From sequence record KP682371: a stretch of 63,569 nt of DNA, one strand, 5' to 3'. The stretch comes from Escherichia phage PA2. This document shows, one piece after another, positions 18,001-21,000 of the stretch. Every line of letters starts with the position of its first letter. Positions within the stretch are counted from its first letter, which is position 1. The position numbers were made by a program.

Positions 18001-21000
18001 CTTTTTTAAGGACGAGAAATTATTACTTAACTGATTTTTAAAGTGATTTATTTTTTAAGGGGACAGATAACAGGAGGGGATATGCAAAGAAAAACCCGGC
18101 GCATGGGCCGGGCTATTTATCTGGTCCTGTTCTCATTCAGTAGAGTAGGGGCCAAGAAATCGCACTCCGTTGAAGTGAATAAGATGAGAAGGTGCATCAG
18201 CCACCCATACCTCTGTTTCCCATGCGATTTCACCAAGATATCGCCCCATGATGGAGCGATTTGGAAAAGCGGTCACATAGACAAGTCCGGCTGTTGATCC
18301 GGCAAACAGCCTGGCAAGCTCAGCATGCCGCTTCCCATCAACCGGTCCATGACTGGTGACAGACTCAACCAGTAGCAGCCAGTTTTTCGCAGTAAAATGT
18401 AGCACCACATCTGGCATTTTACCGTGTGAATCCACATCAACACCTAGCCCGGCCAGCAGTGGAGCGTCGAAGTAGCCCCACTTTTCGCCAGTGTCGCCAG
18501 CATAGACCAGCACGCTACCCGGAGCAAAACGTGGGGCGAAGTCCTCTATTATGGCACGGATAAGTTCGCTGTGCTCGCCGGGACTGAGGGTTATTTGCTG
18601 GCCCGCAGCAATTTCAACAGGGATACGATTCTGTTCGCGCTCCTTAGCATAGCGGGTAACCAGCGTTTCACGCTCGGCTAAATAGGTTGCAAGGCTATCG
18701 TGCCATGCCGGGCTGCCGAAAGTGCGTAGCATGGACAGAGCAGCAGGTTCGATCTGATAAACAGCCTTCGGGCTGTTCACTGGGCGATCGGGCTTGTCCG
18801 GATTGTAGAGGGCTACTCCAGCAGCGCAGAACTGATGCATAGACTGGCGGCGGAATGTCTCACGAGTATTGGGTGCGTAGACCTTGCCGTAGTGCTCCCG
18901 AACCCAATTCATGATTGGTGTAATGCCCACAAGCGGATTTTCCGCGTCGGCCCATGCTTTTCCCGGTGTGAGGTTCAGGAGTGCCAGCAAACACAAAGCA
19001 GAACGCTCATTCTGCTGCGCTCTGGGCAGGCCTAAGGATGCTATAATTTGCTGAGCGGCCTCAATATAATCATTTTGGTTGTTCATGCAGTCAGAGCTCC
19101 TAGCTTAGCGTCAATATGTTCTTGCGTGAGAGTTTCTTGTTGCATAGCCCACTTGCCAAGCTCTATCAGAGTGTCACGGCTTGGGTACTTAATCATCTTG
19201 AGGTCGGTTGCATTGACCTGTGTATGCCCGTTGAAGCGACGGAAATACTTATCCACTGCGGTAGTGTTCAGGAACACGGCCAAGCCACGGGCCAGCGCCT
19301 CGGGTAACCCATGTTTGTTCTCATGAAACACGTTCATGTGATTTTCAAATCCCAACACTGAATACTCACTGAAGGTAGCAGGATCAACGACGCTTGCTAC
19401 CACTCGGCGCTTTTCCTCCTTCGACGAGAAACGACGCACCACACAATAAAAACCGTTCGGGTAAAGCCACTTTTCTGTCTCGTCGTTGCGCATGATTGCG
19501 TTGGGTTTCTTCAAACCTTCCACAGGCCAGACAGTGCTACTCATACTCAAATGGCTCGGGTAGATCAGGGGAACAGTTCCTTCTTCTGGCATGCTGCGCA
19601 AATGAGCTTTCAGTCGGAAATCAACTATCGGTCCGGTCGATACCTTCACGCCAATATCAGCCAGCGAACATTGTACGGCAGATGATAACTCAATGGTGCT
19701 TTTCTCGAGCGTGGTCGGCACATGAATAAACCGCTCCGAATCGTCCGGGTACACAATCTGGTCAAATGGGTGTTCGTAGGTGACCAGGTCAAAAAAGCTA
19801 TCATCGGTCGAAGTTGTGACTGTAACAGCCTCCTGACGGCCTCCACGCTCCAGGCGGATGATAATATTTTCCTGCAACACATCGTCATCCCTGAAAGCTT
19901 TGCTACGTGATTCGAACAAATGAATATGGCGGATTGCTGCCCGCTCAAGTATGAAATTACGGAACGGACGGTAATACGGTCCGTTGCAGAAACTACGTGG
20001 GATTATGGCCACTATCTGCCCGCCAGGTGCAACCTCACCTACAGCCAGTGCAACAAAGGCGGAATACAGATTTACCGTCTCGATACCGACAGTGCGAAGA
20101 GCCTGCCGGTGGGCTGACTGGCTATTGATCTTCTTGTAAGGCGGATTAAGTATTGCATGGGTATAACCTCGATCCTGTAGACCTTCGGCGGTTGCCAGCT
20201 CAATATAATCCCCTTCGATGATGCGGGGCGTCACTCTCCTGTACCCGGTTAAGTGCTTCGCAAGGTGACCACACAGCTTTTTGTCGATTTCGTAGGCTGT
20301 TGCCTCGACAGACTCAAAGCCAAACTCGCCAACCAGCCAACGGTCGAGGAAGGCGCAAGACAGTGCGCCTAAACCAGCGCCTGCGTCCAGTAGACGGCAA
20401 GTTTTCATTGTGCTCGGTGGAAACAAGGAGGCCATAAAACGGGCCACGCCAGAAGGCGTCATGAACTGGCCGAACTCTGCTTTGTGTTTACGCGCGGTAC
20501 GGGGAGACAGCTCGCGACGCACGCTGTCTGCGACGTCTAGCTTTTGAAGCATAACTAATCCTCTTTACGTGGCATGATGATGCCAACGTGCTTTTGACAT
20601 CCTCCACATTCTTCAGGCGTGAAGGATGTCAAATCACTCTGTGAGCTCAATCAAAAGTCTCATCATTCCACTGCGATTTGATGACCTTTCCGACAAACTG
20701 GCAGTTTTCGTTACACTCAATCATGTCGAATCGTGGGTTGAGCGGCTCCAGGTACGCTTTACCGCTCTCACGAATGAATCGTTTGAAGGTAAATTCATCG
20801 CCGTTCATTCGGGCCACGCAAAAATCGCCATCCTCGATTTCCCGTTCAGGGTCAACGAGTATCAGCATACCTTCAGGGAAGCTGGGTTTACCACCCTGCG
20901 GTGCGGTCATTGAATGCCCCTTGACCTCCAGCCAGAACGACCTGTCACTGGCTTTTGTGGTGGTGGAGATCCATTTAATCGCATCTTTTGCGGTGTACGA

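What the first reader, a model, noticed from the sequence alone, without database searches (positions are those of the whole stretch)
18078..20646. Type II restriction-modification gene pair beside the immunity region
A gamma-class N6-adenine methyltransferase (LDAGAGLG then NPPY) overlaps a 317-aa putative endonuclease, with its own upstream palindromes (tgacatcc...ggatgtca at 20595-20631 and ggcatgatgatgcc at 20570-20583) and a terminator at 18078-18102. Size and order resemble PstI/BsuBI-type systems, but the specificity is not established. It occupies the position immediately left of cI where lambdoid phages normally carry N.
Basis: partly seen in the sequence, partly recalled or inferred. 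Interest (0 to 1): 0.6.

Follow-up and report, generated by a model that had tools for sequence, protein, structure and literature searches.

The report
Known EcoGIII restriction-modification pair in Stx2 phage
The two genes are the already characterised EcoGIII (PstI-like, CTGCAG) restriction-modification system that Shiga-toxin phages carry as swappable cargo between their repressor gene and the left operator, so the finding is real but ordinary.

Summary
The window is a Stx2a-converting phage (Oslovirus, PA8 / VT2phi_272 type). Both ORFs are real. The methyltransferase is 19083-20552(-), 489 aa; the endonuclease is 18133-19086(-), 317 aa; they share an ATGA overlap.

Both proteins are 100% identical to those of E. 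coli O104:H4 C227-11 and phage P13374. That is the published EcoGIII system, which methylates and cuts CTGCAG, so the specificity is established. The cassette occurs in 139 of 5,426 complete E. coli genomes and 96 phage records.

- **Not the N slot.** The pair lies between cI and a predicted PL/OL at 17961-18003, which is the lambda rexAB-type slot. Related prophages hold other cargo there (HicAB plus a protease, a SocA-family pair, Stk).
- **The palindromes are not RM-specific operators.** The small one lies in a relic of a plasmid resolvase gene. The large one (20594-20632) is a copy of a solitary 40-bp palindromic element. That element occurs in at least 120 species of Bacteria and Archaea and sits at module junctions. 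I could not identify it.

Verdict: already known, low interest. The hairpin family is the only open lead.

The parts
19083..20552 (-). M.EcoGIII-identical gamma-class N6-adenine DNA methyltransferase, 489 aa (motif X FMTP, motif I LDAGAGLG, motif IV NPPY, C-terminal target-recognition region)
   Evidence: ORF. Pfam Eco57I PF07669, 3.3e-9. 100% identical to phage P13374 ORF31 and to C227-11 WP_000939558.1. Rare codons CUA5 and CCC17 match those listed for EcoGIII in PMC6456624.
18133..19086 (-). R.EcoGIII-identical BsuBI/PstI-family Type II restriction endonuclease, 317 aa (N-terminal wHTH domain, C-terminal PD-(D/E)XK-variant domain; P225-D226 ... E241)
   Evidence: Pfam PF17728 1.2e-54 and PF06616 4.6e-61. 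SdaI 2IXS E = 1.2e-77 over residues 8-315. P225 and D226 are invariant and E241 is >=90% conserved in 33 diverse homologues. 100% identical to the P13374 and C227-11 proteins.
19083..19086 (-). ATGA overlap of the M stop codon and the R start codon (tight M-then-R coupling); AGGAG lies about 10 nt upstream of the R ATG
   Evidence: Read directly from the sequence. The same 4-bp overlap occurs in the plasmid homologues.
18084..18114 (-). Intrinsic terminator closing the cI-M-R block (t_imm-like). It is shared with a 933W-type phage and with homoimmune prophages that carry other cargo.
   Evidence: Terminator scan: 8 pairs, 6 G-C, then a T-run; fold. 91% match to L003 2912-2942. Lies inside the block conserved with L011 (17694-18111).
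20553..20593 (-).
   Evidence: DNA homology with IncP-6-type plasmid cassettes runs 20593..18125. Translation compared with the plasmid resolvase C-terminus LYKHVGVITPRQ*. Two compensatory changes keep the stem between the phage and plasmid alleles.
20594..20632 (.). 39-bp palindrome/hairpin at the cI-proximal edge of the cargo; one copy of a widespread solitary palindromic element (consensus TTGACATCCTCCCCGCCCTTTAGGGCGGGGAGGATGTCAA)
   Evidence: Fold. Covariance model R1 gives 41.1 bits, E = 2e-7. Family data. Junction positions.
18112..20632 (-). Exchangeable cargo module of the immunity region. In a homoimmune prophage this stretch is replaced by HicAB, an SDH-family protease and a small membrane protein.
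   Evidence: Window/L011 homology blocks 17694-18111 and 20633-21700; L011 annotation.
20647..21360 (-). cI repressor (lambda-cI-like), the gene immediately upstream in the same orientation
   Evidence: Pfam Peptidase_S24 9.5e-29 and HTH_3; annotation.
21370..21431 (+). OR3, OR2 and OR1 (published footprints of the BAA2326 repressor) overlapping PR (TTGACA-17-AATGAT)
   Evidence: Exact matches at 21370, 21391 and 21414 to the sites given in PMC5977221; promoter scan.
17961..18003 (-). Predicted PL (TTTACA-17-TATATT, 17989..17961) with two OL-like dyads at 17963-17979 and 17987-18003, 24 bp apart
   Evidence: Promoter scan. A half-site weight matrix built from the OR sites only ranks 17963 first and 17987 fifth among non-training positions of the whole window. 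The stretch is conserved in a homoimmune prophage and replaced in two heteroimmune ones.
17565..17881 (-). phi80-type nutL leader with an rrn-type boxA (TGCTCTTTAACAA, 17881..17869), downstream of the predicted PL
   Evidence: 95.3% identity to the M11919.1 feature annotated 'nutL regulatory signal'; boxA read.

Best explanation
This is the EcoGIII Type IIP restriction-modification system, an isoschizomer of PstI and BsuBI. It is carried as lysogenic-conversion cargo by an Oslovirus-type Stx2a phage.

How it works:
- M is a gamma-class N6-adenine methyltransferase. It methylates the adenine of CTGCAG on both strands.
- R is a wHTH plus PD-(D/E)XK-variant nuclease, like SdaI. It cuts unmethylated CTGCAG.
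- A lysogen is therefore fully methylated at CTGCAG. It restricts unmodified incoming phage and plasmid DNA, and its progeny phage leave already modified.
- The gene order M then R with an ATGA overlap favours M being made before R when the phage enters a naive cell.

Shown here: the gene structures, the domain and motif content, 100% identity to the experimentally characterised proteins, the distribution, and the cassette boundaries.

Taken from the literature: the specificity, the cleavage, the restriction of lambda-like phages and of conjugating plasmids, and the large transcriptome effect of deleting the system.

Inferred, about 0.6 confidence: the pair sits in the exchangeable slot between cI and OL/PL, as lambda rexAB and the stk gene of 933W-type phages do. 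In the lysogen it is probably transcribed as a cI-M-R message from PRM that ends at the terminator at 18114-18084. The cassette came from a plasmid-type resolvase-M-R arrangement.
For: Identity and family
- Both proteins are 100% identical to those of phage P13374 and of C227-11. The 2,571-bp DNA differs from C227-11 at one base.
- The rare-codon positions listed for EcoGIII in PMC6456624 match both genes.
- Pfam domains, SdaI structure homology and a conserved PD...E motif.

Published function
- CTGCAG is 100% m6A-methylated in lysogens carrying a 99.7%-similar M, and EcoGIII was shown to methylate and cleave CTGCAG and to protect against lambda-like phages (PMC6602927).
- An R gene 100% identical to that of C227-11 is reported as biochemically active, and CTGCAG is 98.8% methylated only in the strain that carries the phage (PMC3893438).
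- The system restricts conjugative plasmid entry (PMC4288162).
- Deleting it changes the expression of more than 38% of genes (PMC6597129).

Distribution
- 96 phage records and 139 of 5,426 complete E. coli genomes, always chromosomal and next to cI.

Position
- A PL-like promoter and OL-like dyads lie at 17961-18003.
- boxA and a phi80-type nutL leader lie to the left of it.
- Homoimmune L011 keeps 17694-18111 and 20633-21700 but holds different cargo. Heteroimmune L005 and L012 lose homology at 17956/17967 and at 21058, inside cI.
- PMC5977221 independently places the BsuBI-type RM directly left of cI, followed by about 1 kb of non-coding DNA.

Transcription
- No sigma-70 match of 9/12 or better on the - strand between the cI 3' end and the M start.
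- One terminator, directly after R.

Plasmid origin
- 95% amino-acid identity for R, and 84% DNA identity over 20593..18125 (which spans M as well), to IncP-6-type plasmid cassettes with the same 4-bp overlap, plus a resolvase relic upstream of M.
Against: - Nothing contradicts the identification.
- Co-transcription with cI is not shown. The 94-bp spacer holds a very stable hairpin that could attenuate read-through.
- A weak extended -10-like TGgCATCAT (20587-20577) and 8/12 promoter-like matches leave room for an own promoter.
- The OL assignment is a prediction. Koudelka's group reported 'no readily identifiable OL', and ungapped matching to their footprinted sites does not single out 17963-18003.
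- The primary paper (Fang et al. 2012) could not be read here. Its results are cited second-hand.
Confidence: 0.9

Rival explanations
1. The RM pair is an autonomous transcription unit with its own constitutive promoter in the cI-M spacer. The upstream palindromes act as its control elements.
For: - The homologous cassette works on plasmids in several different upstream contexts.
- The small stem-loop just upstream of the M ribosome-binding site is kept by two compensatory changes between the phage and plasmid alleles.
- A weak extended -10-like TGgCATCAT and 8/12 matches exist in the spacer.
Against: - No consensus match of 9/12 or better.
- The TG of the extended -10 is absent from the plasmid allele.
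- The small palindrome is ancestrally resolvase coding sequence.
- The large palindrome belongs to an element family found in unrelated contexts.
- There is no C-protein gene, and M has no N-terminal HTH.
Confidence: 0.3
2. The main selected role is prophage stabilisation (post-segregational killing when the prophage is lost) or epigenetic reprogramming of the host, rather than defence against incoming DNA.
For: - Deleting the system alters the expression of more than 38% of genes in C227-11 (PMC6597129; PMC6602927).
- Natural losses remove M and R together and never M alone: L007 and four other genomes.
- The same slot holds toxin-antitoxin pairs (HicAB, a SocA-family pair) in related prophages.
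Against: - Restriction of lambda-like phages and of conjugating plasmids has been measured.
- These roles are not mutually exclusive with defence, and nothing here can rank them.
Confidence: 0.25
3. R is inactive in this window and M acts as an orphan methyltransferase.
For: Some relatives carry a damaged R: ArgO145 is annotated as disrupted, and PhiR12_3 and L007 keep only remnants.
Against: In this window R is full length, identical to the enzyme reported as biochemically active, and keeps the PD...E residues.
Confidence: 0.03

Closest known systems
EcoGIII RM system of the Stx2 prophage of E. coli O104:H4 C227-11 (Fang et al. 2012, cited in PMC6602927 and PMC3893438)
   Same: Both proteins are 100% identical. 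There is one base difference in 2,571 bp. The flanking genes are the same (cI on one side, a Rha-family gene further left).
   Different: Nothing of substance. The host phage is a different member of the same genus: the region 17579-17693 and parts of the Rha region differ.
BsuBI (Bacillus subtilis) and PstI (Providencia stuartii), both CTGCAG
   Same: Same Pfam endonuclease family (BsuBI_PstI_RE_N plus BsuBI_PstI_RE) and the same published specificity. From my own knowledge, BsuBI also has the tandem order M then R.
   Different: From my own knowledge, the PstI genes are divergently transcribed. I had no PstI or BsuBI sequences, so identity to them was not measured. Here the genes overlap by 4 bp and sit in a prophage immunity region.
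SdaI (CCTGCAGG), PDB 2IXS
   Same: Full-length homology (E = 1.2e-77), the same two-domain architecture, and a shared PD...E catalytic core.
   Different: SdaI has EAVK where this enzyme and most of the family have E-(A/S)-V-T. The recognition site is 8 bp rather than 6 bp.
Plasmid-borne resolvase-M-R cassettes (IncP-6 and others; Pseudomonas, Aeromonas, Citrobacter, Serratia)
   Same: 95% amino-acid identity for R, 84% DNA identity over 20593..18125, and the same 4-bp overlap.
   Different: The plasmids keep an intact resolvase upstream and an 82-aa ORF downstream. The phage keeps only the last roughly 12 resolvase codons, and a terminator follows R.
Lambda rexA-rexB, and stk of 933W-type phages (cargo between cI and OL/PL, expressed in the lysogen)
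   Same: Same map position and orientation relative to cI, OL/PL and a terminator, and the same kind of role (excluding other phages) (PMC5977221).
   Different: The proteins and the mechanism are unrelated. Co-transcription with cI was not tested here.

Membership tests
BsuBI/PstI-family Type IIP restriction endonuclease | N-terminal wHTH domain (PF17728) plus C-terminal nuclease domain (PF06616) | tested here: met
   1.2e-54 and 4.6e-61, both covering nearly the whole profile.
BsuBI/PstI-family Type IIP restriction endonuclease | Catalytic PD...(D/E) core of the PD-(D/E)XK variant conserved | tested here: met
   P225 and D226 are invariant and E241 is >=90% conserved in 33 homologues of 33-57% identity. 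They align with the SdaI residues P232-D233 and E248.
BsuBI/PstI-family Type IIP restriction endonuclease | Cleaves CTGCAG; restriction phenotype | not testable with these tools
   Published for the identical protein (PMC3893438; PMC6602927; PMC4288162).
Gamma-class N6-adenine DNA methyltransferase | Motif order X (FxTP), I (FxGxG-like, here LDAGAGLG), IV (NPPY), with the target-recognition region C-terminal | tested here: met
   FMTP at aa 30-33, LDAGAGLG at 55-62, NPPY at 136-139, then about 250 C-terminal residues. Pfam Eco57I covers aa 125-220.
Gamma-class N6-adenine DNA methyltransferase | Produces m6A in CTGCAG | not testable with these tools
   Published: M.EcoGIII cloned from C227-11 methylates CTGCAG, and lysogens are 98.8-100% methylated at that site.
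EcoGIII (the specific named system) | Sequence identity to the C227-11 genes | tested here: met
   489/489 and 317/317 residues identical; 1 nt difference in 2,571.
Immunity-region lysogenic cargo (lambda rexAB type) | Lies between cI and OL/PL, in the same orientation as cI, and is closed by a terminator | tested here: met
   Orientation and terminator are shown. The OL/PL position is predicted from the promoter scan, the weight matrix and the homo- versus heteroimmune comparison.
Immunity-region lysogenic cargo (lambda rexAB type) | Co-transcribed with cI from PRM in the lysogen | not testable with these tools
   Indirect only: no good promoter in the spacer, and full methylation of lysogens is published.
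   The predicted PL (17989..17961), boxA (17881..17869) and the phi80-type nutL leader all lie to the left of the pair and read away from it.
C-protein-controlled Type II RM | A small HTH controller gene and C-boxes upstream of R | tested here: not met
   No ORF lies between or beside M and R on the - strand. R starts inside the M stop codon.
Any Rfam 15 family (for the 20594-20632 hairpin) | Score at or above the family's gathering threshold | tested here: not met
   In the window the only match is a chance one (MIR394, 23 bits). A consensus-like copy in L034 reaches 28.8 bits against RF00062 HgcC, whose threshold is 50, and matches only its 3' hairpin.

The most novel reading that the evidence does not exclude
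The 39-bp palindrome between cI and M (20594-20632) may be a copy of an undescribed solitary DNA or RNA hairpin element. It has 12-bp invariant arms, TTGACATCCTCC and GGAGGATGTCAA, and a covarying inner stem. It is present in at least 120 species across many bacterial phyla and in Archaea. It may act as a recombination or insertion hot spot through which defence cargo, such as this RM cassette, is swapped into prophage immunity regions and plasmids. At four of the junctions examined, sequence homology between related elements ends within 0-5 nt of the hairpin.
Probability: 0.2. Interest if true: 0.7.

Novelty: already known. Interest (0 to 1): 0.15.

Why it matters
The RM system itself adds nothing new. 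It is EcoGIII, with published specificity, a published restriction phenotype and a published transcriptome effect, and it is routinely annotated in Stx2a phages.

Three modest additions come from this work:
- A concrete, testable location for the OL/PL of this medically important phage group. The published study of its repressor found no readily identifiable OL.
- Evidence that the stretch between cI and OL is an exchangeable defence and toxin-antitoxin cargo slot.
- A plasmid (resolvase-M-R) origin for the cassette.

The unexplained 40-bp palindromic element at the cargo junction is the only item that could lead to something new.

Tried and rejected
- **Own promoter for M.** The consensus scan and a more permissive custom scan of 20540-20900(-) found nothing at 9/12 or better.
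- **Strand asymmetry of the spacer fold.** Both strands fold about equally well (-40.6 and -40.0 kcal/mol), so the fold energy gives no argument for an RNA-level role.
- **Covariation in the big hairpin within the Stx phages.** The two alleles differ only by one inserted C in the loop.
- **Empty-site search.** I joined the two flanks of the cassette and searched E. coli genomes. No true empty site turned up, only five deletion derivatives that keep an R remnant.
- **Ungapped matching of the published OR1-3 sequences across the window.** This did not pick out the OL candidates. The dyad half-site matrix did.
- **Finding PstI or BsuBI themselves for a direct identity figure.** The homologue search was saturated by near-identical E. 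coli entries, so that comparison rests on Pfam and on my own memory.
- **Reading Fang et al. 2012 and Beutin et al. 2012.** Neither paper is held.
- **A conserved gene next to the hairpin family.** All-against-all clustering of 1,419 neighbouring ORFs found no family present in more than 3 loci.
- **A second, weaker hairpin copy marking the other end of a putative element.** The covariance model finds one copy per locus as a rule.
- **Text searches for the hairpin arms and for HgcC.** Nothing relevant came back.
- **CTGCAG avoidance in the phage.** It is only mild: 10 sites against 15-25 expected, 15th lowest of 64 six-base palindromes.
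Full report
**Observation**

The stretch holds two intact ORFs on the - strand.
- Methyltransferase (M): 19083..20552, 489 aa.
- Endonuclease (R): 18133..19086, 317 aa.
- The M stop and the R start overlap as ATGA at 19083-19086.

M carries FMTP (aa 30-33), LDAGAGLG (aa 55-62) and NPPY (aa 136-139), followed by a long C-terminal region. That is the gamma-class motif order.

The terminator is real but slightly misplaced. On the - strand the stem-loop is 18114..18093, and the T-run reaches 18084.

A lambda-cI-like repressor (Peptidase_S24 plus HTH_3) ends at 20647, 94 bp upstream of M.

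**What the window is**

The region is 100% identical over 2.8-4.2 kb to several Stx2a-converting phages: PA8, Stx2a_F765, VT2phi_272, phi346 and phi349. These are Oslovirus, Sepvirinae. stx2A lies at about 27.5-28.4 kb in the window.

**What the genes are**

- R matches both BsuBI/PstI Pfam domains over their full lengths (1.2e-54 and 4.6e-61).
- R aligns from residue 8 to 315 with the crystal structure of SdaI, 2IXS (E = 1.2e-77).
- In an alignment with 32 homologues of 33-57% identity, P225 and D226 are invariant and E241 is nearly so. The family consensus is PD-x14-EAVTS, whereas SdaI has EAVK.
- M matches the Eco57I methylase domain.

Both proteins are 100% identical to ORF31 and ORF30 of phage P13374 from the 2011 O104:H4 outbreak, and to the proteins annotated in strain C227-11. 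The DNA differs from C227-11 at one base in 2,571. C227-11 is the strain in which the system was characterised and named EcoGIII.

According to papers I could read:
- M.EcoGIII methylates the adenine of CTGCAG, and R cleaves that site.
- The system protects against lambda-like phages.
- Lysogens carrying it are 98.8-100% methylated at CTGCAG (PMC6602927; PMC3893438).
- It restricts entry of a conjugative plasmid (PMC4288162).
- Its deletion changes the expression of more than 38% of genes (PMC6597129).

As an independent check, the rare-codon positions tabulated for EcoGIII in PMC6456624 are exactly those read in the window. They are AUA15, CCC21 and AGA22 in R, and CUA5 and CCC17 in M.

I could not obtain the primary paper.

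The cassette is in 96 phage records and in 139 of 5,426 complete E. coli genomes. In every case it is chromosomal and lies next to the repressor gene.

**Position in the phage map**

The evidence points elsewhere.

1. The only good - strand promoter-like site left of cI is TTTACA-17-TATATT at 17989..17961, to the left of the RM pair.
2. I built a half-site weight matrix from the three OR sites alone. Among all 63,553 positions of the window, it ranks 17963-17979 first and 17987-18003 fifth among non-training sites. The two lie 24 bp apart and overlap the -10 and -35 hexamers, as OL1 and OL2 do in lambda. My OR sites coincide with the DNase footprints published for the identical repressor of phage BAA2326. 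Those published sequences occur exactly at 21414, 21391 and 21370 (PMC5977221).
3. Downstream of this promoter lie a perfect rrn-type boxA (TGCTCTTTAACAA, 17881..17869) and 317 bp that are 95% identical to the annotated nutL region of phi80.
4. The comparative test agrees.
   - A homoimmune prophage (L011, same cI and OR) keeps 17694-18111 and 20633-21700.
   - Two heteroimmune relatives (L005, L012) lose homology at 17956/17967 and again at 21058, inside cI.
   - So the stretch I call OL/PL co-varies with the repressor's DNA-binding domain and OR, whereas the cI-M spacer does not.

The pair therefore lies between cI and OL/PL. This is the position of rexA-rexB in lambda, and of stk in a 933W-type phage whose terminator is 91% identical to the one after R.

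PMC5977221 describes the same layout: a BsuBI RM left of cI, then about 1 kb without ORFs. It states that no OL or N was readily identifiable. The OL/PL location proposed here is a prediction, not a demonstration.

**The slot is exchangeable**

Window 18112-20632 is replaced by other cargo in related prophages.
- L011 holds HicAB, an SDH-family protease and a small membrane protein.
- L012 holds HicAB and a small ORF.
- Phage Lyz12581Vzw holds the RM plus an extra SocA-family pair.

Five genomes carry a deletion that removes M and most of R together (18450-20592).

**Origin of the cassette**

R homologues with 95% amino-acid identity sit on small IncP-6 and other plasmids of Pseudomonas, Aeromonas, Citrobacter, Serratia and E. 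coli. They have the same M-then-R order and the same 4-bp overlap.

DNA homology to the IncP-6 type runs from 20593 to 18125 (84%). The 41 bp upstream of M in the phage read ...KHVGIIMPRKED*, matching the C-terminus LYKHVGVITPRQ* of the resolvase that precedes M on those plasmids.

Its stem is preserved between the phage and plasmid alleles by two compensatory changes (T-A to C-G, and A-T to G-C). It may have some function, but only two alleles exist to compare.

**Expression (inference)**

- No sigma-70 match of 9/12 or better exists on the - strand from the cI 3' end to the M start.
- There is no controller (C protein) gene.
- A single terminator follows R.
- Published methylomes show that M is active in lysogens.

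The simplest model is read-through from PRM (cI-M-R). I give it about 0.6. A weak own promoter cannot be excluded.

**The large palindrome**

It sits exactly at the cI-proximal edge of the cargo.
- Homology with L011 ends at 20633.
- Homology with the plasmid cassettes ends at 20593.
- The natural deletion also ends at 20593.

A weak blastn search found similar hairpins in 107 plasmid records. In three plasmid loci fetched from that search the hairpin lies outside annotated genes; in two of them it starts within about 25 nt of the stop codon of an unrelated gene, one of them an Abi-like gene. In one plasmid the homology to sister plasmids again stops 5 nt before the hairpin.

They come from Desulfovibrio, Legionella, Chlamydiae, Streptomyces, cyanobacteria, Nitrospirae, Bacteroidota, haloarchaea and Methanomassiliicoccales. 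A further 37 viral contigs match.

The properties of this family:
- **Consensus.** TTGACATCCTCCCCGCCCTTTAGGGCGGGGAGGATGTCAA.
- **Flanks.** They have no information content.
- **Neighbouring genes.** No neighbouring protein family recurs.
- **Inner stem.** The six inner pairs were not constrained by the search and covary strongly: 119 double-change cells against 35.7 in shuffles, 0 of 500 shuffles as high, and 6-27 when the pairing is slid.
- **Copy number.** There is one copy per locus as a rule, and the window copy scores 41 bits.
- **Location.** Copies are mostly intergenic: 24% are spanned by an open frame of at least 150 codons, against 78% of random positions.
- **Rfam.** It is not in Rfam. 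The nearest match is sub-threshold, to the 3' hairpin of HgcC (28.8 bits against a threshold of 50).

I could not identify this element. It is not an operator specific to the RM system.

**Verdict**

The finding is a correct recognition of a known, experimentally characterised system (EcoGIII). Novelty: already known. Interest: low. The corrections concern the map position and the nature of the palindromes. The hairpin family is recorded as an unexplained lead.

Noticed in passing
window 20594-20632; loci L016-L018, L019-L138, L139-L175: A solitary palindromic element of about 40 bp. It has invariant 12-bp arms (TTGACATCCTCC / GGAGGATGTCAA), a covarying 6-bp inner stem and a TTTA or TGAA loop. 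It occurs in at least 120 species of Bacteria and Archaea and in 37 viral contigs. The flanks are unrelated, no gene is associated with it, and it is mostly intergenic. It sits at module junctions in the cases examined. It is not in Rfam; the nearest match is sub-threshold, to the 3' hairpin of HgcC.
   Followed up: partly
window 20553-20593: The 41 bp upstream of M are a relic of the 3' end of a resolvase gene (KHVGIIMPRKED*), inherited from a plasmid-type resolvase-M-R cassette. A stem-loop inside the relic is kept by two compensatory changes between the phage and plasmid alleles.
   Followed up: partly
window 17961-18003 (- strand): Candidate PL with two OL-like dyads 24 bp apart, about 3.4 kb from OR. 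The published study of this repressor (PMC5977221) reported no readily identifiable OL.
   Followed up: partly
window 17327-17414(-) and 17439-17514(-): Rfam matches above threshold to C4 antisense RNA (77 bits) and to isrK (58.7 bits), just upstream of a Rha-family gene (16625-17272). This P1 immI / Gifsy-1 isrK-anrP-like module occupies the place where N would be.
   Followed up: no
window 17565-17881(-): 95% identity to the annotated nutL region of phi80, with a perfect rrn-type boxA (TGCTCTTTAACAA, 17881..17869), yet no N gene follows. Shorter pieces of the same leader occur in 933W-type, HK106, HK225 and mEp506 phages.
   Followed up: partly
proteins P0121, P0124, P0138, P0160 and at least 15 more: At least 19 of the 150 best 50%-identity cluster representatives are single polypeptides of 810-886 aa. 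They have the methyltransferase at the N-terminus and the BsuBI/PstI endonuclease at the C-terminus, i.e. M-R fusions of this same gene pair.
   Followed up: partly
L011 1638-4000, L012, L005 3051-4238, L003: In related prophages the same slot between cI and OL holds other cargo: HicAB plus an SDH-family Clp-fold protease and a small membrane protein; HicAB alone; a SocA-family pair in addition to the RM; and Stk kinase in a 933W-type phage.
   Followed up: partly
L007 (E. coli JNEC-KY177) and four other genomes; phages ArgO145 and PhiR12_3: Decayed versions of the cassette. One is a deletion of window 18450-20592 that removes M and two thirds of R and ends exactly at the hairpin. ArgO145 has an R gene annotated as disrupted. 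PhiR12_3 keeps only a remnant of R.
   Followed up: partly
whole window: There are 10 CTGCAG sites, against 15-25 expected, and none in the first 24,449 bp (P about 0.008 if sites were uniformly placed). GCCGGC is absent (22 expected) and GGCGCC occurs twice (18 expected).
   Followed up: no
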